Below are positions 1 through 57,181 of a stretch of DNA of 64,000 bases, piece by piece (the first letter of the stretch is position 1; each line of letters begins with the position of its first letter). Location: contig NC_090600.1 in the NCBI RefSeq assembly GCF_000497125.1, positions 1,013,197 to 1,077,196 on the forward strand. Direction: 5' to 3'. The translations under genes and the position numbers were made by a program. A model generated the notes under the pieces. It did no database searches and had not been told where the DNA came from. It saw only the letters and a program-made list of their open reading frames with translations. The stretch is from Spironucleus salmonicida. Its lineage: Eukaryota.

Positions 1-1931
1 AATTTATCTGGGATGAGGTCAGTAATGGATATAATTATGTGAGCAGTATACTGCAGAAGACGAAATAGTTGCGGAAGCTGACACTAAAATCTAACGGTGG
101 GTATTCAAAATATTTACCAGACATCTCAGAGATTAAGCAACTAGAGATATTAGTGCTCACTCATATCAGTGGTAATATATATTTATCTCCCTGCATACGG
201 ATCGTTATACTCAAGAATTGTAGGATTGACAAATTATATTACAGTTCTAACTACCTTCCGGACCTACTAGAACTTACCATAATAAATATAGCTCATGATT
301 AGACTTTCCTTGGTAATTTACTAGAGAAAGCAAAATAACTGCGAAACCTAACACTAATGGGTAACTCTATATACTACTCACATACACCATGTATGTCATA
401 CTTGAAATAGCTGGAGGTATTAGTGCTTGATAGAATGAGTGGTGATATCTACTTGTCTCCTAACATACGCAGCATTACCATCACGGATTGCGCGATTCAC
501 AGTATTTAATTTAGTGCTGAATCTTTGTCGTAACTGTAGGAGCTTACCTTGTGTAGTGTTAAATATGATAAAACTATCCTAAGTTAGATACTTTAAAATG
601 CGCATAGGTTGCAGAAGTTTAAACTTAAAGATAATGGTATCTTATAGTACGGTCCGCCAGACATCTCCTCGCTAACGTAGTTAAAGATGGTAAAGTTTTC
701 CAACATTTATGGTGATATATACTTGCCCTCCTGCATAGAAAGCTTTACTCTTAACAATTGTAAGATTAAAAAAGTCCAGATCGATGCTGAATCGTTGCCT
801 CATCTGCAGGAATTTACCATAATTGAAGTATCCTATTATTAGAATTTCGTTAATAAAATACTGTAGAAGTCACATGGGTTGCGTAATCTAACAATGAAAA
901 GTAAAGATAATAATTAAAAATATCCACTAGATATGTCAATGTTGCAGCAGCTGGAGATAATCATGCTAGATAGAATACGTGACAATATCAACTTTCCTCC
1001 AAGTATACGAACAGTTACTCTCAAGGATTGCACGATTACTGACTTTCAGTGCAATGCTGAGTCACTATCAGCTCTGTGGGAATTCACCTTGCTGGATGTA
1101 AGCTGTGATTAAAGTTAACTGAATAATTTATTGCAAAAGATGCATAGCTTACGACACCTTACACTGGAACGCGGTGGCCGATCAAGCTCTAATTATAAAT
1201 TTTATCTATTAAAAATATTCTCAGGGAAGTATCTGGAAACATTATGTCTTGAATAAATGATATGCACTATTTACATCTCTTCTACCATACGGAGCATCTT
1301 CCTCACATAGTGCACGATTCACGGAGTGTAGTGTAGTAGTGACTAAATCTTAAACCTACGAAAACTTTCAATGATTAATGTGAATGCTCCAAAAACTGCA
1401 TTGCGTAATGTTCTACAGAAGGCAAACAGGCTTCAGAGCCTAGTAGTGCACGGATACTACAGAAAATCTTATACTATCGCGTAGCTATACCTGCAGCCAT
1501 CAGTGTTGGTGTTGGATCTAGAAAATGTGAATGTCAATCAGCTAGTCTTGACCGCTGCTCCTCGCATAGAAAAACTACGGCTCCATCATATTATCGTTAA
1601 GAAAAATTATATGCCTGAAATATCCAGGCTGATTAAGGCTAAGACAGCCACCCTTCTTGACGTTAGTGACATTAATGTGGATGTTGGGACGCTGGCTGAT
1701 CCCAATCTCGCATAATTTGCTCTTTCTACATTTATCCAGAGAGCTGGGATGGATGTTAAGCTGAATCTTACTGTGGGGTGTCACTACTACCAGCGTGGTA
1801 ATATGATGTACCAGAATGATGATAACACACCGGCGGCGCTGCCCACGAGTCTTACTATCTTCCTGTTACAACTAAAGATCAGATAATTGTCCAGTGAACT
1901 GGTCGTACTGGGTATGGCGCTGGCGGAGTGA
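1..1931 (+). CDS. LRR protein A, left copy (5' part lies outside the window)
   Basis: Continuous frame under table 6 joining track ORFs 69 and 1503. Recurrent motifs LRKLTL..LPDISxLKQLExLxL..GDIYLPPSIRSITLxxCxI..LPxLxELTI. Ends ...LGMALAE* at TGA 1929-1931. Confidence 0.85.
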
Positions 1932-5352: not shown

Positions 5353-7137
5353 TCACTCCAGTAGCGTCTGGGCGAGCATTGTAAGCTCGCTGGCTAGGGG
5401 TATTATCTTCTGTCGGTACACGAATGCCACCAGATTCGCAGGCAACACCACAATCTTATCTACACTATGGGTTTTCTGATACATCGTTTTGTCTCTCTGG
5501 ATGTAGTGTCGCCCCACCGGTATATGCATCCTAGCATATACACCTTCCCGCTGTATGAAGACCCGGAGATTAAATGTATTAATACGGTTATAACGACGCT
5601 AAAAATACCCATATTCCTTTCCAATTGCTTATATATCAATTTTTATTATCGTTCTGGATTTGATTATCCTGACTAGGACTTAAAATTCGTAATAATCGGT
5701 CAAAACTTAATAGATCGACAAAATTTTAACTTTAGGGGTACCAAGTTGGATTAGATGTGATAACCGCATCATTTTGAGTTCCAGCTCAGTAACTGACGGT
5801 TACAAGTAGATCTTCCATATTCTAACAGTATCTTTGAATGTACCACCGAGAATTAGCTTCTGAAGTTTATCTGCCTTCTGCAACACCATGGTAAGAGAAG
5901 GGTCCACAGATTTCATATAGTGCACAGTTAGCTCCAGCAGGTTCGGTAGCGTCTCAGTATCGCACGAGAACTTCGTAATCTTGCATTTATAGATGGACAC
6001 GCTCCGGATGCTGTGAGGTAGGTAGATTTAGCCCTGCATTCCGGTAATTGACAAATATTCCAGTGCTATCAGCTTTGAAATATCTGGTAATATCATATGA
6101 TTCCTATAGTTATTCGTCAGTTATAACTAGCGTATCTTAGGCGATATCTACACTATCATCTACAGTTTCTCGCCCAAGAACGTAACAGAACTAAATGCAT
6201 TGTCCACGGTCAGCTCGAGTAGGTTTGGTAGTAATTCAGCATCGCATTAGAATTTTGTAATCTTGCAGTTAGTGAGAGTGACACTCCGAATACCTTATGG
6301 TATATAAATCTCTCCCTTCCTGTAAGCTAAATTTAGAGTTTCGAGTAACTTTAGTTTGGAAATATCTGGTAATGTAGACACAATACCAAATTTACTCACC
6401 AACACCAGTTTCTGCAGTCCAGTCGCCTTCTGTAGTATCTAACTCAAAGATATATCTACATATGATACACTGTACATGGTGAACTCTTTTAGGTAAGGTA
6501 GTAACTCAACGTCGCAATATAACTTTGTTATACTGGATTTATCGATTTCTATGGTCCTAATGCTGGGAGGTAGGTAGACGCTACCTTTTGTACGAAATAA
6601 TTCCAGTGTCTCCAACTTCTTCAGGCTGGGCATCTCTGGTAGGATCAGACGATAGTATGTATAGTTATCCAAAGTCAGCTTCCGCAACTCTTGTGCGCCC
6701 TTCAGCACGTCAACAAGCGGTCCCCAGTCGCGTATCCATTTGAATCCATCTTTATTCAACGCTTAACCGCACGATACTGCCACCTCTGCGAGGTTCGGGA
6801 GGTCTCGCCCCTGGGGGTTGGTGCACGCAATGGGCGAGTCGACGATGGTGAGCCTGGCGAGGGCGTGGCTGACCTCCATACTGCCGCTCACCCGCGCCAG
6901 GCGCAGCTCTCGCACGTTCTACGCATGCTTCAGTGGCTCCGTGCCATCCATGTTCGCAAGATCCAGTCGGACCACCCCGGCCAGGCTCACCACGGAGTCC
7001 CACCCGCCGTCGAGCGAGAGGTGTGTGTCTGGGGAGGCGGAGGCGCCTGTCTATGGGACTGATATCGCGTCTTCACAGTCGTGGGTACTCTGGGGCGCAT
7101 CCCCGCCGCGGTCTGCCGAGCACGCACTTTATGTCAT
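5353..7137 (-). CDS. LRR protein B (594 aa)
   Basis: aaaATG at 7137 (MTQSACSADRGGDAPQ...). One frame joins track ORFs 6439-6759 and 5800-6000 and ends ...LAQTLLE* with AGTGA. Three ~90-aa LRR modules. Confidence 0.85.
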
Positions 7138-8465
7138 TTTGATAGGGAGTAGCAGAGTGGCGAGTACCCAAATTCCGGTGTCTTGATACGCGCGCCTCTG
7201 GGCAGCAGAAGCCAGCCGCACCCTCCACGAGGCGCCAGCTTGCCTCCGTGATGTTCTTTGCGGCCCTGGCCAGCGCTCGTCCTGCTGATTACCTCACGCC
7301 CATCTAGTATGCCACCATGCGAATAGGAGCCCGCAGTCTACCCCGGCTCCCAGACGCCGCTGGGCTGGTTCTTGAAGGCGCTGCGACCGATGCCACGAGT
7401 CTGAGCGACGTTCGGGCACGGGCGCAGAGACAGGTATGGGCAGCTAGGCAATGCTATATCAATATGGAAGAGCGGGTTTATCTGCAGACTTTGGAGGGGT
7501 TGCGATAGAGAATCCCAACAATATGCTACCCCATCCATGCTGGTCGGGAGAAGGGTACCCCGGCAGCTCTCAAAAGGGGCCCTGGGAGTGAATGCCAACC
7601 GCGATGGCAATATCGGCGTGGAAAAGTATTTGCGCCGGGTCGTTCCTCACCTCAATACCACAACGGGGATATACATGTATCTGCACAGCTTAGTGTAGGC
7701 AGCATGCACACTTTAAAACGGTGGATGCAAATTACTCCTAGCGCTGCCTCGGTAGAGTCGTTGCGGCGGGGTCGGTACTTTGCTAGCGACTCGTCCATTA
7801 CTAACTTCGCAGCCCCGTTCGTCCCCGGGCAGGACAGCCGGGCGACCACTCTGGCCACGTAATGTGCTATGCCATAGCGAACGTCGAGAAGCGGCCCTGG
7901 GTCGGACGTGGGCCACCAGCTAGCAATACCGGCACGCCCTCAGGGCAGGGCACGGCACATTCAGTGGTTCGGACCCGACGCCAACCCAGCTCACAGCGAG
8001 CACGAGATAGTTCCAGGCGGTCCAGAGGAAGTCGTCTTGCGTGATGATTGCTGCGCTGGTACCGCTGGACACGAGCCTACCATGTTGGGGAACCGCTCCA
8101 CGTGGATGCCAGATATTCCGAGCAGGGGCGGTGGCACTAGGCCTTGGTTGCTCCCGGAAGTTGAGGATACACGGTTTAGGCCGTTGGCGTATATTCAGTA
8201 ATATAGTTCTGAAGCGGAGCGAAGATAGCACGATAGGTGTATGCCTGCGTGCTAAGCAGTGGTAGGCACGCGAAAGGCACCCTGGCTAAGGAATCGCAGA
8301 CTGCCTGTGACCCCGCAGGCGATCTCGGCGGCTTCTTTGTGTTGCTTCACTCTCCCTCACCACGCAGCAAATACACGCATTGATGTTAAACTCGTCTCTG
8401 GAATATGGCACTATCCCGCCTGCAGTTCCGGAGGTCCAGTTAGATTAGGATGCCCGGCACCGCGA
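6776..8465. repeat. GC-rich block, copy 1 (LRR constant 5' end plus upstream region)
   Basis: Direct match to 55495-57181 and inverted match to 46465-48151. More diverged than those two are from each other (24-nt insertion, 1-nt indels). Weak similarity to the left arm's flank appears to continue to ~8770. Confidence 0.93.
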
Positions 8466-8495
8466 CCAGTAGCGCGCAGTCCCGGTCCAGGCTGA
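7317..8495 (+). CDS. Putative 392-aa hypothetical protein inside the GC-rich block
   Basis: Track ORFs 7317, 7908 and 8259 are in one frame with no TGA until 8493-8495. The frame is disrupted in the other two copies. Confidence 0.35.
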
Positions 8496-10225
8496 TCCTT
8501 CCACGCTCTTTGTCGTCCAGCTCACACCACACCACTACACCGCACGAAAGCATTCTAGACAGAACTAGTAGGCATCGAGCTCCCGGCAGGTTAGGCTGCA
8601 AAGGGTGCCGCGCTAGCTACTATGGTCGCCACCGGCCATGCACCAGCTGCTGCCCCTCATGCACGAGTAGCAGAAAGACTCTCCATCCGTGTTCGCATAG
8701 TGGATCTCAATGCTGCCCCGCAGGAAGCACATCCCCAAAGTTCAGTGCAGTGTGGTAGTTTTAGCGATGTCTACCTCTAGAGCATTTAAAGATCCCCCAC
8801 TTCACCAATACTAGATTTATCGCATGACCTGATGCAGATGCTCTGGCAATTTTACGGGATGTCTGTCATACTTCCCCTGTGCCGCAGTAGCTAATACATA
8901 TTTACCATCTTGTGCATCAAATATGGCGGTAACGTTATAAAAAATATCGCATGAGCTATGTGAATGACAATTTATTCATTGTGGTATATTTGTGAGAGAT
9001 AGCATAGATTCTATATTACTTACTTTCTAATACGGGCTTAGGCATTGAGTCACTTTTTGTGTTATAGCTCTTCTACCAAATATTTCCAAATCTGAAATTC
9101 GCAATTTTCAAAATAGTATATATCTACTCTGAACAAAACAGCATGAAAGAGGCATACTCAATATTATTTGCACAACTACAGGTATGACACATTGAGGAAA
9201 TTATGCTCTATTGTGATATTTTATATACAAGTAATTAACATCAGACTCATTTATTTTAAATATAACTTTTGAGATTGAGAGCGCGTGTATTATAATGGTA
9301 ACACCATAATGACTGTGAACTCGTATTCTTGGATTAATAACTTATCCGAATGATAATCACTAAGTTTCCAATTTATTTTTATAGAAAGCCTTGCATACAA
9401 ACTTGACTAGAGTTAGCTATTGTAGTATTTTACAAATAGTTTTTATAGTCATTAATACTACTCATTACATAATTATCATAAATGTATATTCCTAATTTCT
9501 ACTAACCGCATATAAGGCTACATTAACTTGACACTATTATACTAATTGGGTCGCTAATATGAAGTAACCATGGTGGAATTGTACATATTCACCCTATTTC
9601 AAGTCTGGTATGAACAGCCAAGCCAACGAATACAAATTATAGAAACTGTACTGTTTTAAGGTTTGGGATAGTATATGCTTACTTCTTACTTTTGCTAATA
9701 TTAGTGTAACTAGTAAAATTTGTAATTATTATATTATGGCGTAAATATATTCACACAATATAAACAATAGACGGAACAAGAATTACTAAAACTAAATAGC
9801 CCTAAGCAGCACTCCTAAGAAAGCATAGAACTTAAGAATAGGTCGATGAGTGGTTTTATTAAATGCCGTAATATCCAACGATTACATTAAATAAATTGAA
9901 TTGAATATACTACTGGAGATTAATTGGCCAGCGCGAACATAGTTCAATTATCATTTACCTAATACACACTTGAATATATATACCTCAAATACTAGTATAA
10001 GGTTAGAAAAAGTTATAATTTCTTTTACTCAGTGTTTGATACTCGCGATAGCATAATGAAAATGCAAATAGTTGTATAATCTACCACAAAATTAGTATGG
10101 TTATTTCTATATAAAATCAAAGCACCATTTACCAATGGTAGCTCAACCTGTGGTTTCCGCAATACATTCTTTGGGAATTATCTTAGTTTAGTCAGAATAT
10201 ATACTATAATATGTTGTCTATAAAA

Positions 10226-11671
10226 ATGTTGCTGTCACTATAAATATCATGCCTTTTGAATTCAAAGGCAACCTACTTAATGCAAACCAATACTATGCAC
10301 TTCCAGTCTGGCCTCAACCCGTACCTCCTCCCAAAGGAGAAAATTCTATGCGACCAGTTCATGGGCGAAACCGTCAACTTAGTCATTTTGATCGGACCGT
10401 ATACCTTCAAAGCCGATGCTATTTTGTACTCATCACTATCTCGGGTGATTTTAGCGTCCGAAGACGCAAACCATGATGATATCGACCTGTATACCGTTGC
10501 AAAGTTCACTCTCGTCCTCACGAAGCAGCTCGTGGACTAGGCAGGATAGATTGACTCTTTCGCGATCAGAAGGTTCAGCAGGACCTCGTGCATCAATTCT
10601 GGAATTTTTATCTGCGACGATACCAAGATGCAGCTGCTTTTCAAGAACGAGACCTGTGCATTCGACGCTAGTCTAACGCAAGTAATTGTGCAATTTTTTA
10701 ACTAAGGAGATGTAATAACCGTAATGAATTAGAGTGCTGGCGTTGTTGACTTCGACCAGATAGCCGTCATGGACGTTAAGGCGACCTGTGCCGACCAGGG
10801 GTGCCGTGATAATTTGTCCCAGCTCAGTTAGCTCGACGCAGTGTTTGGGTACTTCCTTTTCAAGACGGAATAGAAGATGACCAAGAAGGTTCGTGCATAC
10901 AATAACTCCGGTATTGACGCGGAGGTGGAGCTGGAGCTCACATTCTATATGCGGAATTTGGCGCAGGTCGAGTACATGAAGTCGTTCACAGACGTCACGC
11001 AAGTCGCTATCTTCCACGTATAGAAGGAGTATTTCGTCGTGACAAATTTTCCGAACCTGGCCTAGGACATAAGTGGCCTGACCTTCATTATCACCAACTC
11101 CACTGACTTCTTCTCCCTGACCTCACCACCCCAGTCCACCTCCGCATTCATCATTAACTGCGTTGGTACCTGCGATAAAACCCTCGCCGCTATCCATGCT
11201 ACCATGGCTACCGACAGTATTTCTTTCGCCCTAGCACAGCAGACTGGCACATAACAGAAGATCCTCATACCTGCGACCGCGCTCTTCACGTGCATATCTG
11301 CATCTGCCATCAAGTTATACAAGACGCAGATCTGTGCTGTGATTGAGCTGTATGCTGGTTGTGAGTTTGATTTTGGGGTCCAGATCGTGCGAATCGATTT
11401 CGACGGTCTCAGTTTCCAGGGCAGTTTCGCCGTAAACTTCGTCGATGTGGCATACTGCTTCGAGAGCGACTCCCACATCAGCTCTAGCATCCAGGGCGGC
11501 AATAGTGTTGGTGTGGTTCAGATAGGAACCTAGATCTACCCTTTCGGACATGTTTTCGCACTGATTGAGAGCTCGAGCCTCTGGTTAGGCTGGTGCGTCT
11601 TCGCAGTGTTACTAGTCATGACAATGACGGGTGGGCTGCTGTGGGTGCTTCTACGCGAGGTGAAAGCATGA
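10226..11671 (+). CDS. Hypothetical type I membrane protein (481 aa)
   Basis: Starts MLLSLQISCLLNSK (short signal-like; upstream in-frame ATGs exist). Joins track ORFs 10256 and 11339. C-terminal hydrophobic helix WLGWCVFAVLLVMTMTGGLLWVLL then REVKA*. Confidence 0.75.
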
Positions 11672-11897
11672 AAGTCGGGGTGAGCGTATGAAATTCATTC
11701 ACAGCACGCAGATCAGAACCCAACATTTCTCAGCCCTGGTACCAAATACACATTAGCACACTGTAGCGCACTGCGGGTGTTCATTTGCATGCTGTGGGCA
11801 GACCACCTTGCGAGCATTTTGCTTCACATCGAGCTGTATGACTGTGATGAAAATTCGCCCACCCTAGTCTATCCATATATGAACATTCCACTCCAAA

Positions 11898-13343
11898 ATG
11901 CAGATCTCACTCTCGTTCCAGGGCGGAGGTGCCTTTCAGTACCTCCTGCAGACCACGGTCGATGGCGTACTATACAAGACGCCACTTCGCAGGGAGTCAT
12001 CATAATCTTCGGAGCTGCTTCCGCACACACCCACGTTCCAGCTTCTCTGCCAGGCCCCGGGCCGCCCGATCCAGGTGCACGTCTTAGACTCCAGATCGGG
12101 GCAGATCTAGATTCAGGGGGTCTCCCTGCGCTACACCGTCGACTCCACGTAGAAGCTTCGCTACGCTGCTTTCGAGGTTTCCACCCTTCAGCGAGTATTT
12201 CCTGAGCGCGCGGTCGTCCACTTCTCGTAGTACTCAGCGGATGCTGGTAGGCATGTGGTTGTCCCACAAGGTGACTTTTCGGTAACTTGGATTATGTAGA
12301 CGCCCGTAGGACAAATTGAGACGGCCAGACTGCACGTGGGTGGAGGCCCTTTCAGCTATTTCCAGATTGAGCACGGAGTTCCAGAGTTATCAGCCAGTCA
12401 GTAACTATTTTTGATACTACTGCAACAAAAACTTAGCCCCAAACAGACAAAACTTGCTGCGGCGCTCCTGCCGCTATTTCGGATGGATACTCTAGGCACG
12501 GATAAGCAGTTTTAGAAGCTGGCCAAAATCTCGAAGGGACCACCTCTAAGCCTTTCAGCCGTCTTACTACGTGTATTTTGTGGTAGTCCTGGGGAGCTCC
12601 GGACTCCATCAACTTCCCTATTTCTGCTATCCGAGGAGCGGTTAACGGTGGACTAGCTTCGCCCGGTAAAGGTCAATGCATCCTCTTATCGAGTATCCCC
12701 GCAGACTTTCTCGCTGCTCGGCGCGTCCTATGGCGCCACGGTCCCGTAGACCGATTTCTTTGTGCATGCAATCGACTTTTCAGATGAGGCACCAGTGGAC
12801 ATCCAGCTCTTCCGAGATCTCCTCCGCCTAAACGACGGCAAGACCTCGATCGGTATGGGCTTCCAGACTTTGGAAGTGTTTGTGGAAGGATCGTACGCGG
12901 CTCCTGCTGGGTCTCCTTGTATATACCAGCAGGTGGTTCGGAAACGCATCACATTCCAGTAGTAGACCCAGACGCATGCAGAAGTCCTGGTATGTAGTTA
13001 AAATAGGCTTGTGCAAGCGTAGGCCGACTGGACGGAGGGATTTTCGGAGGATTCATCTGAAATACAAACACCAATGATAGAGGCCCCTAAGGCTCAAAAA
13101 CCTGAAGCTACGCCACGGCACGTTCACAACAGCACACCCGGTAAAGCAACTGCACTGAAGTCCTCATTTTAGGACCGGACGACGGCTACCAAGCTGCAGA
13201 CCTTCCCGAAACGAGCCAACTCACAAATGCAGATCCCATAGGTTCTAGCTATGCCGGGACCAGACACAGCTGCTGCCAAAATCGCGAAGCAAATTAACGA
13301 GGCAAAGCGACGCGTGAAGGCGCTGGGCTTTTAGCGGAAGTGA
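11898..13343 (+). CDS. Hypothetical protein (481 aa)
   Basis: aaaATG 11898 (MQISLSFQGGGAFQYLL...), TGA-free frame including track ORF 12762, ends ...KALGFQRK* on AGTGA. Confidence 0.75.
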
Positions 13344-14489
13344 GTGGATTTTCGCGGCATGTGTTAGGTGCGAATTTTACTTAGAGTTTTCTGCAGCAGT
13401 CTAGACTTGGAGGTCAGTGCGCAGAGGGAAATCGCAAAATTTTGCGTATTCGTAAGGAGTAATTTTCTGGTGATATAATGCTAGCAATGCAGCAAATCGC
13501 TTGAAACAGGGCATTTCCAGCGTAATACGAAAGAAAAACAAGGCTCACTTTGCGTTGGGGCAGATTACAGTTCCGTCTTCGTAGGTGATGCACTTATCGG
13601 CGTTGACGTCAGTTTTAGTTTTTTATGGGCAGATTACTGTACCATCCTCGTATTGCATGCATTTTTTGTCAGCGTCCATTTAGTGTGAAAGGAAAGTATA
13701 CAATTTAGATTGACACAGGTTTTAAAAATCCTGCAAATACTAATAATATATACTGATAATTGGAAAAATATTGTAAACTTAATATATAAATAATTAAAAA
13801 TATATAATAATATTATCTCTATCAAAAATTATACATTTCTATTTTTGCTATAAAAGATTGTGGAAATAGCCTAATTTAGTGAAATGGATTTAATAATATA
13901 AAGAGCTATAATGAGGAGAGATATTTAATAATATTATAAAGTGCTGAATATTTCCGATATGTAAGTGAATTCACCTTCATTCATAATATTCTCTAATAGT
14001 GGAGTTATAGACTGTAAATACTTTGATTCCTAATAATAATTTATTATTTTTAACAAATTTAAAGCAACTTGTGTACGAATACAGCTTAAGCTTCCAAGAT
14101 AAATAAGATGAAAAATTAAATAATCATAAGTTCTTATGACAATATTAACTTTGTAATCAGTTAATAAAATTAAATCTGTTTACAATATTTAATAAATCTA
14201 TGAACTATTGTTTTCTATTTAACCTTCAGCAGTATTAGGAAAAACTACAAATATCTTCTAATACTAAATAAATAACCTCCTGATTAAGTATCATTGTAGA
14301 CAAATTTCCTAAATTGTCACTATAAATCCATTATTTTGACATTAATTCATTTATTATATCTTAATACTAGCTAAAATCACTATTTTCCAACCAAGCAAGC
14401 TTAACCCCCTTCGAATCCAACTAATTATAAAAATTTTATATTATATTTAATAAATAATAATACTATTATTCACTTTTTCCATCAGAAAA

Positions 14490-29259: not shown

Positions 29260-29742
29260 ATGTAATCACCATTCATCGATTTTGTTAATAGAAAATAAAA
29301 CACATTAAAGATGAGTCGACCTATGTCTACTAGTAAATTTTATCTTAGTAATAGTAATACTGTTACTTTTTAAGAAAGGATAGATTTTGATAATGTATAT
29401 CTTAGATTATCAAAAACATGTTAGGATTAAGAGTATTAATAAAAATAACAAATTTATGCATCTGTATACTATAAATAACGAGAAATTCTCAATAAAATAA
29501 AAAATGAAGAGATTGAAAGGACTATTGTAAAACATGCTATTTCAGATCTCCAGAAAATCACAGCTTTAGCGAGTGCAAATAGATACAAAAAGTACTAGTA
29601 ACATATCCCAGGGCAGCCTTATAGAAAAAGTCGAGATACAATTGAGTAAGATACGTTTGATTTGGGATTTGATATTGTAAGCGTTATAGACAGATGTGCA
29701 ACAAGAAAGTCCCTCAATTAGAGCTAGACAAAGTTTAAATGA
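29260..29742 (+). CDS. Hypothetical protein (160 aa)
   Basis: aaaATG, MQSPFIDFVNRKQ...QSQTKFK*, open under table 6. Confidence 0.55.
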
Positions 29743-30148
29743 TTGTAGCAATAATATGCTACTTTTTATCATGTGTGATAGTTAATAAATATATATTATT
29801 TATGCAATTAAATTATTTAAGAGTAATCATCAAACAAGTTTTAAAGATTACATGCAAAAAATTATGATTTAACACGCTCTTAAGGTCTAGTTAGCAAAAA
29901 ATTAGCACATATACTTAACATTATTAAATAGTATACTTTGTACACAAAATATTACAACAGTTTATAATTATACTACCCATTACAGCTAAAATCATATAAT
30001 ATGTATTATCTAAACCTACAATCGTGTTTAGTACCTAAATTACAAACTATTATGTCATCAATAAACCTTAGCTTTAATCATTTATATAAAATTACCATAT
30101 TATATATTACAATCTCTATATACTTTCCCACTCCAATTTTTTAAAAAT

Positions 30149-36186: not shown

Positions 36187-37080
36187 ATGACAGATCCAGG
36201 TACCTGCTCAAACAACGGTATACGCTGTTCAGTTGGATATTCTTGTCCATCCTACACTGATGAGAGTGTTACCTGTCTGCCATGCTCAGATAAAATGACA
36301 GCTGGCTAACGTTGTGTATGTAAACCAGGTATAGAGATCGTGGACTGTATATAGTGTTCAAATGGGAAATGTTCAGCATGTTTGCCTGGAACTTACCTTG
36401 ATGTTGATTATTGTCCAGACTGCTCTAAGGGATGTGAAGTATGCATCGATAAAAATACATGTACAAAATGCTCCAAAGATTATTTCCTAAATGAAACTAC
36501 CAACTAGTGCACTTCTGAATGTACATCCAATATGGCTTGTCAATTCAATGGCGGTGGTTATTGTGATAAAAGTACAGGCAAGTGCATACCCTGTAACGCA
36601 GACTGTGAAATTTGCTCTGCTGCTAACGTGTGCGACACTTGTAAAGATAGTCGTAATATGGCTTCCAAGGAAGGACTTTGTATTGTGACGTGTGAAGAGC
36701 GGGGAAATGGTTAGTATTGTGATAATGATGTCGTAAAGTAGTGCGAAAAGGATATAAAAACTTCCTGCAGGTGTGGTGAAGCCATAAATTGTGAAATGTG
36801 CAGCCCTGAGGGGACCTAATGCAGTACTTGTCTGGCAGAATTTATGATAAACGAAGTTGGACACTGTACGGACTGTGGAGACGGATTTGAGCGAATAGAA
36901 ACAGTATGCTTGCCCAAGCAGACCGATGACGGCTAAGTTCTTAGAGGTGGATCTATCTTCGGCATTATATTCAGTGTTCTTGCAGTAATTGGAGGTTTAG
37001 GTATTGGGATTGCACTATTTTTGATCAAGAGGGGGAAGAAGGTTAAACCTGACGTTGGCGTGACTAATAATCTCGAGTGA
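36187..37080 (+). CDS. Cysteine-rich membrane protein (VSP/CRMP-like, 297 aa)
   Basis: Dense CxxC/CxC motifs, C-terminal TM GSIFGIIFSVLAVIGGLGIGIALFLI followed by KRGKK; stop in AGTGA. Confidence 0.92.
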
Positions 37081-46464: not shown

Positions 46465-48151
46465 GATATGCTTGTTGCGGTGCCGGGCATGCTAAACTAA
46501 GTTGATGTAGTAGGTACAGGGTAGACTTTCTGGTCTGGATGGTGCCATATTCCAGAGACGAGTTTAACATCAATGCATGTATCTCCTGCGTGGTGAGGGA
46601 CAGTGAAGTAGCACAAAGAGGCCGCCGAGATCGCCTGCGGGGTCACAGGCAGTCTGCGATTCCTTAGCCAGGGTGCCTTTCGCGTCCCTACCACTGCTTA
46701 GCACGCAGGTATACACTTATCGTGCTATCTTCGCTCCGCTTCAGAACTATATTACTGAATATACGCCAACGGCCTAAACCGTGTATCCTCAACTTCCGGG
46801 AGCAACCAAGGCCTAGTGCCACCACCCGTGCTCGGAATATCTGGCATCCACGTGGAGCGGTTCCCCAACATGGTAGGCTAGTGGCCAGCGGTACCAGCGT
46901 AGCAATCACCACGCAAGGCGACTTCCTCTGGACCGCCTGGAACAATCTCGTACTCGCTGTGAACTGGGCTGGTGCCGGGCCCGAACCACTGAATGTGCCG
47001 TGCCCTGCCCTGAGGGCGTGCCGGTATTGCTAGCTGGTGTCCCACGTCCTACCCAGGGCCGCTTCTCGACGTTCACTATGGCATAGCACGTTACGTGGCC
47101 AGAGTGGTCGCCCGGCTGTCCTGCCCGGGGACGAACGGGGCTGCAAAGTTAGTAACGGACTAGTCGCTAGCAAAGTACCGACCCCGCCGCAACGACTCAC
47201 CGAGGCAGCGCTAGGAGTAATTTGCATCCACCGTTTTAAAGTGTGCATGCTGCCTACACTAAGCTGTGCAGATACATGTATATCCCCGTTGTGGTATTGA
47301 GGTGAGGAACGACCCGGCGCAAATACTTTTCCACGCCGATATTGCCATCGCGGTTGACATTCATTCCCAGGGCCCCTTTTGAGAGCTGCCGGGGTACCAT
47401 TCTCCCGACCAGCACGGATGGGGCAGTATATTTTTGGGATTCTCTATCGCAACCTCTCCAAAGTCTGCAGATAAACCCGCTCTTCCATATCGATATAGCA
47501 TTGCGTACCTGCCCAGACCTGTCTCTGCGCCCGTGCCCGAACGTCGCTCAGACCGTGGCATCGGTCGCAGCGCCTTCAAGAACCCGCCCAGCGGCGTCGG
47601 GGATCCGGGGTAGACTGCGGGCTCCTATTCGCATGGTGGCATACTAGATGGGCGTGAGGTAATCAGCAGGACGAGCGCTGGCCATGGTCGCACAGAACAT
47701 CACGGAGGCAAGCTGGCACCTCGTGGAGGGTGCGGCTGGCTTCTGCTGCCCAGGGACGCGCACCGCAAGACACCGGAATTTTGGTACTCGCCACTCTGCT
47801 ACTCCCTATCAAAATGACATAAAGTGCGTGCTCGGCAGACCGCGGCGGGGATGGTCCCCAGAGTACCCAGGGGGGCTCAGGCACCTCCACCTCCCCAGAT
47901 ACACACCTCTCGCTCGACGGCGGGTGGGACTCCGCGCTGAGCCTGGCCGGGGTGGCCCGACTGGATCTTGCGAACATGGATGGCACGGAGCCACTGAAGC
48001 ATGCGTAGAACGTGAGAGAGCTGCGCCTGGAGCGGGTGAGCGGCAGTATGGAGGTCAGCCGCGCCCTCGCCAGGCTCACCATCGTCGACTCTCCCATTGC
48101 GTGCACCAACCCCCAGGGGCGAGACCTCCCGAACCTCGCAGAGGTGGCAGT
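46465..48151. repeat. Left arm of the 1687-bp inverted repeat (GC-rich block copy 2)
   Basis: Reverse complement of 55495-57181. Begins GATATGCTTGTTGCGG, ends GAGGTGGCAGT. Mirrored identical ORFs in the track (47037/56346, 46722/56613). Confidence 0.96.
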
Positions 48152-50654
48152 GTCCTCCACATTTTAAGGGGGTTATTACTCATGCTTAGGGAGTCACGGC
48201 TGGTTGCATCTGGTCCATGTATTATAAAGGGCGAACCAGCTGCGATGCCTGACGCTAGATTGTGATGGTAGTGACTACGAGTATCCGCCATATATGACCT
48301 AACTGAAGTAACTGGAGATGTTAGTGCTCACTAGAATAAGGGGAAGCGTTTACTTATCCCATAGCATACGGAGTATCACTCTCACTAACTGTAAGATTAC
48401 TAACTTCTAGTGTGATGTTGATTCGCTACCGGACCTGCGAGAGCTTACCATAGTAGATATTAATAAAGAGCAAACTTTCCTGAGTAAGATACTGGAGAGG
48501 GCCCACGGGCTGCGTAATCTGACGCTGTAATATGTTGGTATATATTATAGCAAATATTAAGTTTAGATACTAGATATCTCAATGTTGAAGTTTCTGGAAA
48601 CATTAGTTGTTACTGAAATAAATGTTGATCTATATCTACCATAAACTATACGAAGTATCACACTCAAAGATTGTAATATTACGAACTTCCAGTGTGATGC
48701 TAAATTGCTTCCCGACCTGCAGGAATTTATCTGGGATGAGGTCAGTAATGGATATAATTATGTGAGCAGTATACTGCAGAAGACGAAATAGTTGCGGAAG
48801 CTGACACTAAAATCTAACGGTGGGTATTCAAAATATTTACCAGACATCTCAGAGATTAAGCAACTAGAGATATTAGTGCTCACTCATATCAGTGGTAATA
48901 TATATTTATCTCCCTGCATACGGATCGTTATACTCAAGAATTGTAGGATTGACAAATTATATTACAGTTCTAACTACCTTCCGGACCTACTAGAACTTAC
49001 CATAATAAATATAGCTCATGATTAGACTTTCCTTGGTAATTTACTAGAGAAAGCAAAATAACTGCGAAACCTAACACTAATGGGTAACTCTATATACTAC
49101 TCACATACACCATGTATGTCATACATGAAATAGCTGGAGGTATTAGTGCTTGATAGAATGAGTGGTGATATCTACTTGTCTCCTAACATACGCAGCATTA
49201 CCATCACGGATTGCGCGATTCACAGTATTTAATTTAGTGCTGAATCTTTGTCGTAACTGTAGGAGCTTACCTTGTGTAGTGTTAAATATGATAAAACTAT
49301 CCTAAGTTAGATACTTTAAAATGCGCATAGGTTGCAGAAGTTTAAACTTAAAGATAATGGTATCTTATAGTACGGTCCGCCAGACATCTCCTCGCTAACG
49401 TAGTTAAAGATGGTAAAGTTTTCCAACATTTATGGTGATATATACTTGCCCTCCTGCATAGAAAGCTTTACTCTTAACAATTGTAAGATTAAAAAAGTCC
49501 AGATCGATGCTGAATCGTTGCCTCATCTGCAGGAATTTACCATAATTGAAGTATCCTATTATTAGAATTTCGTTAATAAAATACTGTAGAAGTCACATGG
49601 GTTGCGTAATCTAACAATGAAAAGTAAAGATAATAATTAAAAATATCCACTAGATATGTCAATGTTGCAGCAGCTGGAGATAATCATGCTAGATAGAATA
49701 CGTGACAATATCAACTTTCCTCCAAGTATACGAACAGTTACTCTCAAGGATTGCACGATTACTGACTTTCAGTGCAATGCTGAGTCACTATCAGCTCTGT
49801 GGGAATTCACCTTGCTGGATGTAAGCTGTGATTAAAGTTAACTGAATAATTTATTGCAAAAGATGCATAGCTTACGACACCTTACACTGGAACGCGGTGG
49901 CCGATCAAGCTCTAATTATAAATTTTATCTATTAAAAATATTCTCAGGGAAGTATCTGGAAACATTATGTCTTGAATAAATGATATGCACTATTTACATC
50001 TCTTCTACCATACGGAGCATCTTCCTCACATAGTGCACGATTCACGGAGTGTAGTGTAGTAGTGACTAAATCTTAAACCTACGAAAACTTTCAATGATTA
50101 ATGTGAATGCTCCAAAAACTGCATTGCGTAATGTTCTACAGAAGGCAAACAGGCTTCAGAGCCTAGTAGTGCACGGATACTACAGAAAATCTTATACTAT
50201 CGCGTAGCTATACCTGCAGCCATCAGTGTTGGTGTTGGATCTAGAAAATGTGAATGTCAATCAGCTAGTCTTGACCGCTGCTCCTCGCATAGAAAAACTA
50301 CGGCTCCATCATATTATCGTTAAGAAAAATTATATGCCTGAAATATCCAGGCTGATTAAGGCTAAGACAGCCACCCTTCTTGACGTTAGTGACATTAATG
50401 TGGATGTTGGGACGCTGGCTGATCCCAATCTCGCATAATTTGCTCTTTCTACATTTATCCAGAGAGCTGGGATGGATGTTAAGCTGAATCTTACTGTGGG
50501 GTGTCACTACTACCAGCGTGGTAATATGATGTACCAGAATGATGATAACACACCGGCGGCGCTGCCCACGAGTCTTACTATCTTCCTGTTACAACTAAAG
50601 ATCAGATAATTGTCCAGTGAACTGGTCGTACTGGGTATGGCGCTGGCGGAGTGA
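47814..50654 (+). CDS. LRR protein A, right copy, full length (946 aa)
   Basis: aaaATG 47814 (MTQSACSADRGGDGPQSTQGG...), in frame with track ORFs 48792 and 50226. Seven ~90-aa LRR modules. TGA 50652-50654 within AGTGA. No signal peptide or TM seen. Confidence 0.88.
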
Positions 50655-53600
50655 ATCCCTTTCATATATCTCTATTCTAATATTATCCTTCTAATGACCA
50701 CTTGCAACATATGTTTATTGGCTGCGCTTACGCTAACCCATCCAATCACTCTTCAGCCACCTGCTGTGAAAGTACTTTACACACATTCATCAGAAGGAAT
50801 TTATATAACTCTATCTGTAGCTTCAATATATGATACGTCTGCCGATTTCCACATTGCTCATAAGCTGGATGTGAGTCATTCTCATATTTCAGAGAGTTTA
50901 TTATATATCGTATTATTTACATTCCAATAAGCTTATGCTTGCAATATAAAATCATTTAACAACGAAACTTGTTGTATTAATACAAAATTTGATACTAGAT
51001 GAATATAACCAACTGAGCTCCATGTGAATGTGGCTGCGCATGATTGATAAAATATACTGAATATAACGTCTACATTGTGCAGGTTCACGTGGCATGTCTT
51101 ATTTCTGCCATACTTTCATACTCCAAATTTGTATCATTTCTAAAATTCTGACACCAGTTAATCTGACACTTACAACACGAGTAGTATACATTTTATCAGT
51201 TGATGCTGACTGTAGAAGGCTATTTCCTGATAGTATAGCGGCTACAGGCTCTATACCTTACAATTATACGTCAAAAAATATTCTAAGTACGATTTGTGAT
51301 AGTTAAATTTGTTTCCAAACAAGAGTAACCATTTTAGAAGATATATTAGATCAATTTAAGCCCCTGCTGTCCTTTTGCCATTTCTTTTTCTCAATGTCAG
51401 GCGCTACTGCTTAATAGTTGCTATTTGACATATATATTCTAGCATATTTGTAGCCAGCCTACTATCTTGCACCCCATACACCTCTCCTGACAACATTTTC
51501 ATCCCACACAAGATGCCAGATAGGGGATCCGACTAGATATCCTAATACCTATACCTAAGACATTCAGGTGAATTTCTCCCACTTTTATTAGTGTATATAA
51601 CCAGAATTCGATCGCTTCTGACCAATAAACCAAATATGTTGGCTTCAGCTACAACAGCAATCCCAGGTGAACAGTGAAGCCAGTGCTGGCACTATTCATA
51701 CAAATATTCTTCGATTTCAGCTAACTGCGCAAAAACATCTTATCAGCGTCGTGATCTCCGCTGCGAATGTAATTCCAAAATTTTATATTCTTATATATCA
51801 AAATTATGCCTTTTTGAAACATCGGCTGTTCCCTAGAATTTTTCAAACCAAGTCTTAAAAGCCAGATAGACTTAATAATGTATGTTCAAATTTCTTTAAA
51901 ACAATTTTTCAATTCCATAACAACCGACAAATCCGTTATTTCCTCAATAATCTACCCTTTTCCTTAATATTTTTAATCTAGTTCATCTGTTATATCACCT
52001 CTAAAATAAATTATTACCATAAATCTCACTCCATTCCGAACATGCCCAAACTGTTCTCGCCTGCAAGACCCACTCGCTAAAATACAAGTAGTGGAATTCC
52101 ACGTAACATCACCATAATGAATTTTTAGTCTCAAACTTGAAAACGCCAATTCCACATATTTATTAATTTTAGAGGACAAATTTACTTATTTCATGAGGTT
52201 TACTCTCGAGGGCAAATTATTCGGAATACGCGAATTCAGCTACAAAATTAAAATTTTTTGCACCTAAAGCAGTCGGATTCGCGCGCAAAGATGGCTTTTT
52301 GTTATATTAAATGCGAAATGCACGGTTTCAGGAAGTCGAAATAGGTGCTCCTGACGTCAGCAGGCGCCAGATTTCGAGGGTCAATTGGCATACGCTGACG
52401 AAAATCTGGATTAAATCGTCTGAAAAGTTGTATAAACACGAAAATGAGCTATGTGAGAAAACGATCTGCCACCGCATTTTCGACTTCAAAAGTTTCAAAA
52501 AATGCAGGTAAAGCGAATACAGCGCTACCCCTGCGCAATCATCAAACTGCAGTTTATGGAGAATAAGGCTAGGAGCTCTGCGGGGTCCATCTGGTGCCGT
52601 TCGTTGAAGTTGCGCGGATGCAAAGGAAAATACACGATTCTCATTTCCGTTAGATTCCGCGGTTAGGGGCTGAATTTCAGAGACACGATAAAGGGCTTTC
52701 CGGAAGTAATACTGGGGGAAAATTAATTACTCAAAGGGAATGGGAGCTGCTGGCTGACGATGACGAAACCTGTGATGCATCCAGTTATAGTCCACCGGTG
52801 GCTCTACCAGCAGCTAATCAGCAGTTACTTCGCTATGTATATTTTTTGTTCGGTACCATCTGGCGGTAATCCTCAGAAAGTCGCCCAAGAGCCGTACTGA
52901 CAAAGTTAACCACACAGTCAATTATGGTCCCAAACAACGCGCTCAAGGCAGCGAACGTCCAAGTTTAAGCGAATGCTGGAACCAAAAAGTTCTATTTTAA
53001 TCTCGTATAGTTGCTGTAGGACCGTAAAAGAAAACTTAGACCGTTGATTCAGTCTCAATAGAGATTTAATCCCGAGGGTCTAGTCGTACATCAAACTGGT
53101 GCGGTTCTGCCAGGTGAGTTTCGACGATGAGTCCATGAGTGGTGTAGAGAACAGGAGCAGGGACGCTTAAAATTGAGTTAGATCATGCAGTTCTGCAGAT
53201 AGAAAATGCAGGAACATGAGTACGGATCCGTGAACTAGAAGGACCCCACGTTAGAAAGTCCGCCAGAAGCCGCCATGGCTCTGTCTGACACTAGGGACGT
53301 GGGATCTGGTAGTTCATCACTCACGCGAGTTTACAGGTCTGGTAGCACCTTGGCTTGCCGTGCAGTGGCTTTTACTGTGCTGTTGGGGCGCTGCGGACTC
53401 CCTGCATATATTCCTAAGCGCTAAACGGTGATTGCAAAATGGTATTCTGGAGAGACAAGGGTGCGTGGTTCACGGTCGTAGGGGACAGTTTTGGTTGCTT
53501 CTGGCGGGTTCTCCTTTCGTGAATCTGCACTTTCTCAACGGCTGAGCCTGGAGGCGAAGCTGAGAGGTCCACTGGTCTCGATGGGTGCGGGGAGTAGCGC

Positions 53601-54279
53601 TGCGAGGTCATGGCTGCAATGGTAGATATGTAGTTCCGAGCACTGCCGATGTTTAATGCTACCTGACTCTAGATGAGAAAGGTCGGGTAGGTGAGCAGAA
53701 GTTTGTAATTAGACCTATAATATAATACTCATGATATTCTCACTTAAATGCACGGCGAAGTCCGAATCCAGCTCAAGCTGAGGGGAGGCAGGCGTACCGC
53801 GCACTGAAACTACCCCAACAGTTTATTACTACCAGCGGACTCACAATACAGTCCTAATACAGGCTAGTAGCCATTGTGTGGGATACCCTGTACCCCAAGC
53901 ACGGAGGATCTCGGGCATCCTGCGGGTGCACGGCGTCCAGACCACATTCCTATGGATATCAAGCGCAGCCGTGAGATAAAGCAGTGCAGTACGGGAATCA
54001 CCTGTGGGTGCGACCACGGCGTAGTAAACACCCAAGCTGTTCGCATTAGGAGCGGGAGATTTCGAGACAGCTCACTCCAGTAGCGTCTGGACGAGCATAG
54101 TAAGCTATCTGGCTAGGGGTATTATCTTTTGCCGGTACACGAATGCCACCAGATTCGCAGGCAACACCACAATCTTCTCTACACTATTGGTTTTCTGATA
54201 CATCGTTTTGCCCCTCTGAATATAGTACCGCCCCACTACCATATCTATCCTAGCATCTACACCGTCCCTCTGTATGAAG
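48724..54279 (+). repeat. Segmental duplication, right copy of 1-5560
   Basis: Direct sequence match to the start of the window. Confidence 0.97.
52444..53130 (+). CDS. Second copy of the cassette-centre hypothetical ORF (228 aa)
   Basis: Same frame and same TGA as 3724-4410; about a dozen substitutions seen. Confidence 0.4.
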
Positions 54280-55832
54280 GCCTGGAACACGAAATTTAGA
54301 TTACTGATACATAATACACCATACATATGGTGTATTAACCCTATGTTGAGTATTTACATACTCGATATTGTTCTGGATTTAATTAGCCTGATTAGCACTG
54401 GAACTCTGTAATCGTGAGTGCCAACATTATTGAGCAATAAATTTTTGACTCCAGGGGTCCCAACTAGGATCAGTTCTCCAAAACATATATTTTACAGTTT
54501 CAGGATCGTAACGGATGGCTATAGGTTGATACTCCCAATGTAAACAATACCTTTCATCCACCCATATATAATTAGATTCTGAACTTTAATTGCCTTCTGC
54601 AGCACCATGGTCAGAGAAGGGTCCACGTATCTCATATAGTTTATGGTTAGCTCTAGCAGGTTCGGTAGCGTCTCGGTATCGCACGAGAACTTCGTAATCT
54701 TGCATTTCTCAATGGACACGCTCCGGATACTGGGAGGTAGGTAGATATCACCCTCCATTCCGGCGAGTGTCAGAAATTCCAGTACGGTCAGTCTTGAAAT
54801 ATCTGGCAAAAGCATACGCTGCATGTAGTTATTCTCCAGTTTTAACTTCTGTAACATAGGCGATATCTATACTATCGTCTGCAGTTACTCGCCAAGGCAA
54901 GCAACCGCACTGAATGCATTATACACAGTCAGCTACCGTAGGTCTGGTAGTGACTCAGGTTAGTACTATAGCTTCGTAATCTTACATCGCGTGAGGGTGA
55001 TGCTCCGGATACTTGGTTGTAACGAAATCTCACCCTTCATGTTTTCTAGGTTTAGGGTATCCAAAACCTTTAGTTTGGACATGTCTGGCAGTGGAGTCAC
55101 AATATACAAATGCATCCCTAGCTACAGCTTACCCAACCTAGGTGCCTTGTGCAGTATCTAACTCAGAGATATATCTACATGTGCCATACATTCCATGATG
55201 AGCTACCGCATGTCCGGTAGTGAATCAACATCACATTAGAACTTTGTAATTTTACATCCTATTAGGATGATGCTCTGGATATTTGGAAGTAGATGGAGAC
55301 TACCCTTTGTACAGCATAGTTACAGTGTCTCTAACTTATACAGACTGGGAAGCTCAAACTGAATGAAATTATGGTGATGGGAGTTTACCAATTTCAGCTT
55401 CCGCAGCTCTTGTGCGTTCTATATCAGGTTAATAGGCAGTCCCCAATTGCAGCTCATCTTGAATTGACTCTAATGCAACGTTTAGCTGCACTATACTGCC
55501 ACCTCTGCGAGGTTCGGGAGGTCTCGCCCCTGAGGGTTGGCGCACGCAATGGGCGAGTCGACGATGGTGAGCCTGGTGAGGGCGCGGCTAACCTCCATAC
55601 TGCCGCTCACCCGCTCCAGGCGCAGCTCTCTCACGTTCTACGCATGCTTCAGTGGCTCCGTGCCATCCATGTTCGCAAGATCCAGTCGGGCCACCCCGGC
55701 CAGGCTCAGCGCGGAGTCCCACCCGCCGTCGAGCGAGAGGTGTGTATCTGGGGAGGTGGAGGTGCCTGAGCCCCCCTGGGTACTCTGGGGACCATCCCCG
55801 CCGCGGTCTGCCGAGCACGCACTTTATGTCAT
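54072..55832 (-). CDS. LRR protein C (586 aa), positional counterpart of LRR B
   Basis: ATG 55832 (MTQSACSADRGGDGPQ...), in frame with track ORFs 54519 and 54105, ends ...QTLLE* on AGTGA. Three LRR modules. Confidence 0.85.
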
Positions 55833-57181
55833 TTTGATAGGGAGTAGCAGAGTGGCGAGTACCAAAATTCCGGTGTCTTGCGGTGCGCGTCCCTGGGCAG
55901 CAGAAGCCAGCCGCACCCTCCACGAGGTGCCAGCTTGCCTCCATGATGTTCTTTGCGGCCCTGGCCAGCGCTCGTCCTGCTGATTACCTCCCGCCCATCT
56001 AGTATGCCACCATGCGAATAGGAGCCCGCAGTCTACCCCGGCTCCCAGACGCCGCTGGGCGGGTTCTTGAAGGCGCTGCGACCGATGCCACGGTCTGAGC
56101 GACGTTCGGGCACGGGCGCAGAGACAGGTCTGGGCAGGTACGCAATGCTATATCGATATGGAAGAGCGGGTTTATCTGCAGACTTTGGAGAGGTTGCGAT
56201 AGAGAATCCCAAAAATATACTGCCCCATCCGTGCTGGTCGGGAGAATGGTACCCCGGCAGCTCTCAAAAGGGGCCCTGGGAATGAATGTCAACCGCGATG
56301 GCAATATCGGCGTGGAAAAGTATTTGCGCCGGGTCGTTCCTCACCTCAATACCACAACGGGGATATACATGTATCTGCACAGCTTAGTGTAGGCAGCATG
56401 CACACTTTAAAACGGTGGATGCAAATTACTCCTAGCGCTGCCTCGGTGAGTCGTTGCGGCGGGGTCGGTACTTTGCTAGCGACTAGTCCGTTACTAACTT
56501 TGCAGCCCCGTTCGTCCCCGGGCAGGACAGCCGGGCGACCACTCTGGCCACGTAACGTGCTATGCCATAGTGAACGTCGAGAAGCGGCCCTGGGTAGGAC
56601 GTGGGACACCAGCTAGCAATACCGGCACGCCCTCAGGGCAGGGCACGGCACATTCAGTGGTTCGGGCCCGGCACCAGCCCAGTTCACAGCGAGTACGAGA
56701 TTGTTCCAGGCGGTCCAGAGGAAGTCGCCTTGCGTGGTGATTGCTACGCTGGTACCGCTGGCCACTAGCCTACCATGTTGGGGAACCGCTCCACGTGGAT
56801 GCCAGATATTCCGAGCACGGGTGGTGGCACTAGGCCTTGGTTGCTCCCGGAAGTTGAGGATACACGGTTTAGGCCGTTGGCGTATATTCAGTAATATAGT
56901 TCTGAAGCGGAGCGAAGATAGCACGATAAGTGTATACCTGCGTGCTAAGCAGTGGTAGGGACGCGAAAGGCACCCTGGCTAAGGAATCGCAGACTGCCTG
57001 TGACCCCGCAGGCGATCTCGGCGGCCTCTTTGTGGTACTTGACTGTCCCTCACCACACAGCAAATACATGCATTGATGTTAAACTCGTCTCTGGAATATG
57101 GCACCATCCAGACCAGAAAGTCTACCCTGTACCTACTACATCAACTTAGTTTAGCATGCCCGGCACCGCAACAAGCATATC
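55495..57181. repeat. Right arm of the 1687-bp inverted repeat (GC-rich block copy 3)
   Basis: Starts ACTGCCACCTC, ends CCGCAACAAGCATATC; near-identical reverse complement of 46465-48151. Confidence 0.96.

What the first reader, a model, noticed from the sequence alone, without database searches (positions are those of the whole stretch)
54279..55494. Hypervariable LRR array (B vs C) inside an otherwise near-identical duplication
Seen: I found only one difference between the LRR A copies over 1.9 kb (T402/A49125, Leu/Met). B and C, at equivalent positions and equal in length apart from an 8-aa N-terminal indel, differ heavily. Framework stretches are kept (SIRSVSIxKCKITKFSCDTETLPNLLELT, VDPSLTMVLQKA) while residues around the LxLxx strands change (KLQKLILGGTFKDTVRIWKIYL vs KVQNLIIYGWMKGIVYIGSINL). 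Established: these strand positions form the concave binding face of LRR solenoids. Inference: diversifying selection on ligand-binding proteins lacking a visible signal peptide or TM, possibly an intracellular recognition or defence family.
Basis: partly seen in the sequence, partly recalled or inferred. Interest (0 to 1): 0.7.

Follow-up and report, generated by a model that had tools for sequence, protein, structure and literature searches.

The report
Old LRR island inside converted duplicates
In a fish-parasite genome, copies of a repeat-protein gene keep old, very different middle parts while the DNA around them is repeatedly made alike by copy-to-copy correction, a known pattern that hints the copies bind different partners but does not show unusually fast evolution.

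Summary
Observation confirmed, interpretation half right. B and C are colinear sister genes of a Spironucleus salmonicida LRR family (9 copies at three loci). Their arrays differ at 31% of bases against 3-6% in the flanks, but synonymous sites are as diverged: dS about 0.55, 28 of 99 fourfold sites versus 5 of 83 in head and tail. The array is old; the flanks were later homogenised by gene conversion. dN/dS is 0.27 at buried, 0.48 at framework and about 1.0 at exposed strand and loop positions, never significantly above 1 for B/C. The high dS does not clear selection: the island sits on the LRR array in all four copy pairs profiled (17 of 28 gene bins versus 3 of 217 elsewhere), the known signature of selection against conversion, though repeat-number change can start it passively. 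A Tyr-rich loop in paralogs gives omega about 2.5 (post hoc, fragile). No signal peptide, TM, F-box or BspA repeat. Three family members, probably A, B and C, are induced 20-58-fold without antioxidants in a published table. The scan noted converted palindromes elsewhere in this genome. Defence role untested.

The parts
54072..55832 (-). LRR gene C, 586 aa: 113-aa head, three 4-strand super-repeats (100, 90, 94 aa), C-terminal cap
   Evidence: RNA-like contigs cover the ORF and fall to near zero above 55916, favouring this ATG over the 718-aa reading from 56228
54249..55493 (-). Divergence island of C against B (LRR array and first part of the cap)
   Evidence: 385 of 1245 bases differ; dS about 0.55
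55494..55832 (-). Constant head of C, inside the palindrome arm, GC3 0.78
   Evidence: 99% identical to the A heads over nt 1-338; GC3
5353..7137 (-). LRR gene B, 594 aa, positional sister of C
47814..50654 (+). LRR gene A2, 946 aa, seven super-repeats
   Evidence: RNA-like contigs cover it from about the ATG to the stop
1..1931 (+). 3' part of LRR gene A1 (starts 910 bases before the window, G000:C5:1012287)
46465..48151 (+). Left arm of unit 2 (upstream DNA plus head of A2)
   Evidence: 99.0% identical to the right arm over 1687 bases
55495..57181 (-). Right arm of unit 2 (upstream DNA plus head of C)
6773..13432 (-). Right arm of unit 1 (6.7 kb; partner at G000:C5:1005995-1012627)
   Evidence: 99.05% over 6660 bases
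50655..54071 (.). Spacer of unit 2, with a decayed trace of a cytosolic carboxypeptidase-like gene; no RNA-like cover except the 3' end of C
   Evidence: 73% match of 51678-51824 to the carboxypeptidase-like ORF on C3
56024..56566 (-). Decayed F420-0:gamma-glutamyl ligase-like gene upstream of C (also 47080-47373 and 7579-7740); intact upstream of the C3 and C8 paralogs
   Evidence: tblastn 30-41%; PF01996 E=7e-53 on the intact copy

Best explanation
B and C descend from one gene by an old duplication of the A-spacer-B/C unit. Since then gene conversion has kept rewriting everything that can still pair: arm to arm within each palindrome (upstream DNA and head) and unit to unit (all of A, the spacer). 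The B and C arrays escaped and drifted apart as a block, synonymous sites included (shown by the divergence pattern; conversion itself is inferred). The same escape at the array recurs at the C8 and C3 loci, so selection most likely removes conversions that would erase distinct binding surfaces (inferred, about 55% given the history). The proteins are expressed, soluble LRR solenoids with a shared head and upstream region and different arrays. Most likely they are co-induced cytosolic protein-binding adaptors, each with its own partner set, read out through exposed strand residues and a Tyr-rich loop, and switched on under thiol or antioxidant deprivation (inferred). The confidence given is for the history plus maintained, expressed function; the binding role alone is about 0.6, a defence role about 0.2.
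For: dS 0.56-0.58 by ML, 0.62 by NG86 against 3-6% in flanks. Units pair B1-C1, B2-C2, B3-C3 with support 100, 94, 100. Upstream -1250..-331: A1 vs B 0 of 919, A2 vs C 5 of 920, but between units 39 of 919: arms follow their unit, as arm-to-arm conversion predicts; from about -320 A1 switches to the unit 2 type and stays so through A. 200-base bins at 10% or more: 17 of 28 in LRR nt 200-1599 versus 3 of 217 elsewhere over four pairs; E vs F head pS 0.04, array 0.6, cap 0.07. Buried omega 0.14-0.38 in every set. Tyr 46 of 326 loop residues versus 58 of 2138 (units not independent). Peak-of-divergence theory: PMC3924837, PMC2588116 (passages). GC3 0.78-0.79 in heads, 0.35-0.56 in C5 arrays; duplicated regions of the species are GC-rich (PMC9509377 passage). 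RNA-like contigs over A and C only. Induction table.
Against: No direct test of omega above 1 passes for B/C. The four pairs are not independent (E is used twice; three loci). At C3 and C8 the arrays differ in unit number, which can block conversion with no selection. No orthologue from a second strain or species was available, so the control used in PMC2588116 (flat orthologous divergence) is missing. The loop class was chosen after seeing the alignment; its signal is p=0.03 with its own dS, p=0.08-0.47 after dropping 2 of 7 units, absent in B/C (omega about 1.0) and gone in the cap once the loop has its own dS (0.81). The link of the three induced locus tags to A, B, C is by elimination. No binding partner is known.
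Confidence: 0.7

Rival explanations
1. Passive escape. An early indel or repeat-number change broke pairing in the array; conversion stopped there and divergence snowballed. Exposed positions and loops simply evolve near neutrality. No selection for difference.
For: Omega about 1.0 at exposed and loop positions is what neutrality gives; across 25 units exposed omega is 0.65, below 1. Unit number varies 2-7 among paralogs. Conversion edges that cut through genes are reported elsewhere in this genome (AI notes, unchecked).
Against: B and C have the same unit number and lengths (100, 90, 94), so no large indel separates them. The 2.8-kb A array, with seven units, was homogenised whole, so arrays can convert. 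Pseudogenic spacer DNA stays at 3%.
Confidence: 0.3
2. One reading: recent duplication, then fast positive selection on the concave face.
For: Exposed positions differ more often (51 of 82). In the younger C3/C8 set M2a beats M1a for middle units (p=0.010) and unit 1 (p=0.0002), not for the cap (p=0.18); exposed cap positions give omega 1.0-2.1 depending on the fit, p=0.065.
Against: dS in the B/C array is about ten times the flank divergence, also at codons with the same residue (73 of 219 differ). Site-model signals in recombining repeats are prone to false positives (own knowledge); the unit 1 signal clusters in one short patch, as a conversion tract would.
Confidence: 0.07
3. One of the two arrays was replaced, after a young duplication, by an array from a lost paralog or a divergent allele of another lineage.
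For: Explains an old block in 3-6% diverged flanks in one step. The island has fairly sharp edges.
Against: No donor in G000: only B matches C along its length. It would have to be invoked again at C8 and C3.
Confidence: 0.12
4. Targeted hypermutation of the array, or an assembly artefact joining haplotypes.
For: The sharp contrast with flanks.
Against: Differences are spread over all base pairs with no adenine or cytosine bias (A/G 91, C/T 81, A/T 71, G/T 63, A/C 53, C/G 26). The listed contigs over the C array show no other letters in 4 of 4 runs (contigs drop rare variants). DNA depth fits two A copies. A, B and C also stand as separate proteins in a second protein source.
Confidence: 0.03

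Closest known systems
Divergence peaks in duplicates under gene conversion (red/green opsin exon 5; Drosophila CG18281/CG17637), PMC3924837 and PMC2588116, passages read
   Same: Local high paralog divergence flanked by homogenised DNA, read as selection against conversion.
   Different: Here the peak is 1.2 kb, spans a repeat array and recurs at three loci; the orthologue control is lacking and repeat-number change offers a neutral trigger.
Plant NLR and RLP clusters (RPP8: bioRxiv 10.1101/694240, abstract and outline only; Cf-4/9: seen only as a reference title in PMC3924837)
   Same: Clustered LRR paralogs with intergenic exchange and variable exposed positions.
   Different: No NB-ARC, TIR, CC, kinase or TM part; omega above 1 on the concave face is not shown for B/C; no pathogen link.
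Tetrahymena lineage-specific LRR genes (PMC6564038, passages read)
   Same: Species-specific protist LRR families, variable repeat number, ectopic recombination, mostly purifying selection, function only guessed.
   Different: Thousands of genes with 90-bp exons there; 9 intronless genes with a 90-100-aa four-strand unit here.
BspA-like LRR proteins of Trichomonas, Entamoeba and Trepomonas (PMC11437800, PMC6397501, passages read)
   Same: LRR expansions in anaerobic protists, linked in those papers to oxidative stress or host contact.
   Different: Defined by Pfam LRR_5 and often a TM segment; neither is found here.
F-box/FBD LRR proteins (Pfam PF24758; automatic UniRef label on paralogs)
   Same: Best Pfam match of the repeats (E=3e-10 for C, 8e-25 for A).
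   Different: No F-box or FBD domain hit; the label rests on the repeat alone.

Membership tests
LRR solenoid superfamily | Tandem LxxLxLxx strands forming a parallel sheet | tested here: met
   PF24758 above cut-off for A, B, C; model pLDDT 72, strands at the motif positions; top Foldseek hits are LRR proteins, TM about 0.3-0.45
BspA-like (TpLRR) | Pfam LRR_5 repeats | tested here: not met
   no LRR_5 hit at E<=0.1 for A, B, C
BspA-like (TpLRR) | Surface anchor (TM segment or CaaX) | tested here: not met
   max Kyte-Doolittle 19-mer 1.21-1.44 in 8 of 8 intact proteins, no C-terminal Cys
F-box/LRR substrate adaptors | N-terminal F-box domain | tested here: not met
   no F-box family at E<=0.1; head is modelled as disordered then strands, not helices
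NLR immune receptors | NB-ARC/NACHT nucleotide-binding domain | tested here: not met
   none in Pfam or NCBIfam scans
NLR/RLP-like diversifying LRR receptors | dN/dS above 1 at exposed xxLxLxx positions | tested here: not met
   B/C 1.07-1.15, not significant; 25 units 0.65; C3/C8 cap 1.8, p=0.065
NLR/RLP-like diversifying LRR receptors | Specific recognition of a foreign ligand | not testable with these tools
   no partner known
Divergence peak under gene conversion | Paralog divergence high locally, low on both sides | tested here: met
Divergence peak under gene conversion | Evidence of conversion in the flanks | tested here: met
   arm sites group by unit, then switch
Divergence peak under gene conversion | Orthologous divergence flat across the peak | not testable with these tools
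   no second strain or species with the family: only S. salmonicida proteins above E=1e-30

The most novel reading that the evidence does not exclude
A small diplomonad repertoire of intracellular recognition proteins: one shared upstream region and head, held constant by palindrome conversion so that all copies are induced together by thiol stress, joined to separately maintained LRR arrays with Tyr-rich variable loops that bind different foreign or damaged proteins. That would be an NLR-like logic built without any NLR domain.
Probability: 0.17. Interest if true: 0.7.

Novelty: new member of a known kind. Interest (0 to 1): 0.36.

Why it matters
It corrects a tempting reading: near-identical flanks in this genome date the last conversion, not the duplication, so a divergent island is not proof of fast evolution. 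It also leaves a small, testable gene family: constant head and upstream DNA, distinct arrays at three loci, and strong induction of three members when antioxidants are withheld, in a parasite that must survive oxygenated tissue. If the arrays bind different partners, divergence islands become a way to scan this genome for selected differences.

Tried and rejected
Transposon with long terminal inverted repeats: rejected; arms differ in length (1.7 and 6.7 kb), hold ordinary or decayed genes, and 12 of the 13 other ORFs scanned had no Pfam hit, the one hit being IFT140. Inversion switch: the arms carry near-identical upstream DNA and heads, so a flip would change little; no joints among contigs. 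Repeat shuffling as the cause of B/C difference: rejected by positional pairing. A short B-C conversion patch near C343-410: longest identical run 32 bases, clustering test p=0.27, not shown. F unit 1 was left out of the 25-unit tree as aberrant, and indel-rich loop columns were dropped there (75 codons kept); B/C tests stopped at residue 505 because 506-516 aligns poorly. Distant relatives: 463 hits at E<=0.001, only 3 below 1e-30, all family members; of 10 others scanned, 9 are generic LRR proteins and 1 (P0016) is a distant copy in G000. Atlas hits 0.89-0.92 are generic LRR clusters, leads only. NCBIfam LRR-effector matches are far below cut-off. No RNA holder is listed as RNA on record; X5 and X8 are guessed RNA. 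B was not in the stretch laid. No complex was predicted: no candidate partner.

Full report
Setting. The window is G000:C5:1013197-1077196, read with table 6; homologs carry the name Spironucleus salmonicida. It holds two copies, 48.7 kb apart, of a unit A(+), spacer, B or C(-). Each unit is bounded by inverted arms: 1687 bases at 99.0% for unit 2 and 6660 bases at 99.05% for unit 1. In both, arm identity ends at about gene base 338, the end of the 113-aa head.

The family. G000 has nine copies: A1, B, A2, C on C5, three on C8 (D, E, F) and two on C3 (G, and H with a frameshift in the head). Weak matches to the C-terminal cap lie at three further places, and P0016 is a fourth; these counts are lower bounds. 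Each gene has a head, 2-7 super-repeats of 90-100 aa with four LxxLxLxx strands, and a cap. The model of C (pLDDT 72, pTM 0.71, 7 sequences) has strands at those motifs and one helix per unit; the ends are low confidence. Foldseek gives generic LRR matches. A search of 1.84 billion representatives found only family members below E=1e-30 (3 of 463 hits).

Check of the observation. A1 and A2 differ at 1 of 2841 bases; B and C at 385 of 1245 in the array, 21 of 339 in the head, 20 of 177 in the tail; the spacer next to them at 65 of 2198 and the upstream DNA at 39 of 918. The quoted motifs are right. DNA contig depth fits two A copies and one C in X1, less cleanly in X3, and the listed contigs over the C array show no other letters in any of the four runs (one sample, possibly the source of the assembly, for the DNA runs).

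Is it fast evolution? No. NG86 gives dS 0.62, dN 0.34 for the finding; fourfold sites differ at 28 of 99 there and 5 of 83 in head plus tail. My own codon ML models (GY and MG, F3x4) give dS 0.56-0.58 and omega 1.07-1.15 exposed, 0.23-0.27 buried, about 0.6 other; exposed versus 1, p=0.49 and 0.74; M2a versus M1a, p=0.15 and 0.32. With loops split off, pS is 0.39-0.52 in all five classes, and exposed plus loop positions give omega 0.98. On 25 units and 75 codons M2a finds no selected class and exposed omega is 0.65. The younger C3/C8 copies show more: the loop after strand 2 has omega 2.5 (p=0.0002 with shared dS), 2.6 with its own dS (p=0.03), and loses significance when 2 of 7 units are dropped; in the cap the loop signal vanishes with its own dS. 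That class was chosen after seeing the data. The loop is Tyr-rich (46 of 326 versus 58 of 2138 residues).

Why old DNA sits in young-looking flanks. Between -1250 and -331 the two arms of a unit match each other (0 of 919; 5 of 920) better than the same arm of the other unit (39 of 919). From about -320 A1 mostly follows the unit 2 type while B keeps its own, and A1 equals A2 through the gene and 1.2 kb on. So there are layers of age: 0.04% (A), under 1% (arms), 3-6% (between units), dS 0.55 (B/C array). This is concerted evolution by conversion (inferred). GC3 is 0.78-0.79 in heads and 0.35-0.56 in C5 array units, in line with the report that duplicated regions of this species are GC-rich and cover 19.2% of the genome (PMC9509377, passages). 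Earlier AI notes of this scan describe such palindromes on other pieces of this genome (unchecked); my reading was set before I saw them. B and C units pair by position, so they are sisters, not strangers joined by a crossover.

Does selection hold the island? In four pair profiles, 20 of 245 bins of 200 bases reach 10% or fail to align; 17 lie in LRR bases 200-1599 (28 bins), two at block edges and one in a cysteine-rich membrane-type gene. E versus F has pS 0.04 in the head, 0.6 in the array, 0.07 in the cap. A local peak amid converted DNA is the described signature of selection against conversion (PMC3924837, PMC2588116; passages), so high dS does not refute selection. Against: three loci only, E used twice, unit number differs at C3 and C8, and the orthologue control is missing. 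For: B and C have equal unit lengths, and the longer A array was converted whole. I put selection at about 55%.

Expression and likely role. RNA-like contigs cover A and C and almost none of the arms or spacer (RNA status is the tool's guess). No TM or signal-like stretch is present. In supplementary file 3 of PMC6397501 (rows seen; file cut when stored, two picture PDFs unread), 7 rows share the family's OrthoMCL group. Three neighbouring tags (13729, 13736, 13741) have log2 fold change 4.6, 5.8 and 4.4 without antioxidants; the other four, among them F and G, change by -0.4 to +0.7, and D, in another group, by -0.2. The five tags between the three are not significantly induced. That the three are A, B and C is inferred by elimination, as these three also stand in the older protein source. 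The main text does not mention them. Four searches for the species with LRR or expression terms listed no paper on this family; the first genome paper of the species was not read, and unseen supplements may bear on this.

Verdict. Real feature; old divergence island in a converting duplication; probably maintained function with distinct binding surfaces; positive selection on the concave face not shown; defence role speculative. New member of a known kind, interest 0.36.

Noticed in passing
window 56228-54072 (-); P0009: A 718-aa reading of C is in the databases; RNA-like cover and the A/B starts favour the ATG at 55832, so the longer start is probably an over-call.
   Followed up: partly
G000:C3:1086773-1087945, 1098171-1099343, 1104715-1105887; C8:102759-103931, 128251-129423, 190231-191403: Six intact F420-0:gamma-glutamyl ligase-like genes (PF01996), five of them directly upstream of an LRR paralog and decayed on C5; possibly of bacterial origin (not tested).
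   Followed up: partly
G000:C3:1091325-1094048; L013:1325-4045: Cytosolic carboxypeptidase-like ORF (weak M14 hits) in the spacer of the C3 palindrome; broken copies follow the LRR genes on C8 and C5.
   Followed up: partly
G000:C3:1083733-1084548; window 8583-8723: Cys-rich PHD/ADD-like ORF (label recalled) on C3 with decayed copies on C5 and C8.
   Followed up: no
window 41627-45555: Decayed copy (64-67% identity) of G000:C3:1078951-1083109, showing that the C5 cluster came from the same source block as the C3 cluster.
   Followed up: partly
G000:C8:138261 region; L020:7821-9554: The only non-edge divergence peak outside the LRR genes (16%) lies in a cysteine-rich membrane-type gene.
   Followed up: no
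G000:C3:1030148-1031974, C3:1054755-1057538, C3:1070005-1071090, C1:871107-871526: Distant proteins sharing only the C-terminal cap of the family (23-25% identity for the three found).
   Followed up: partly
window 29393-34978, 19312-19860, 27307-28167, 36187-37080, 37551-40034: IFT140 (Pfam), and by recalled resemblance a centrin, a cathepsin B and two cysteine-rich membrane proteins between the two units; ordinary.
   Followed up: no
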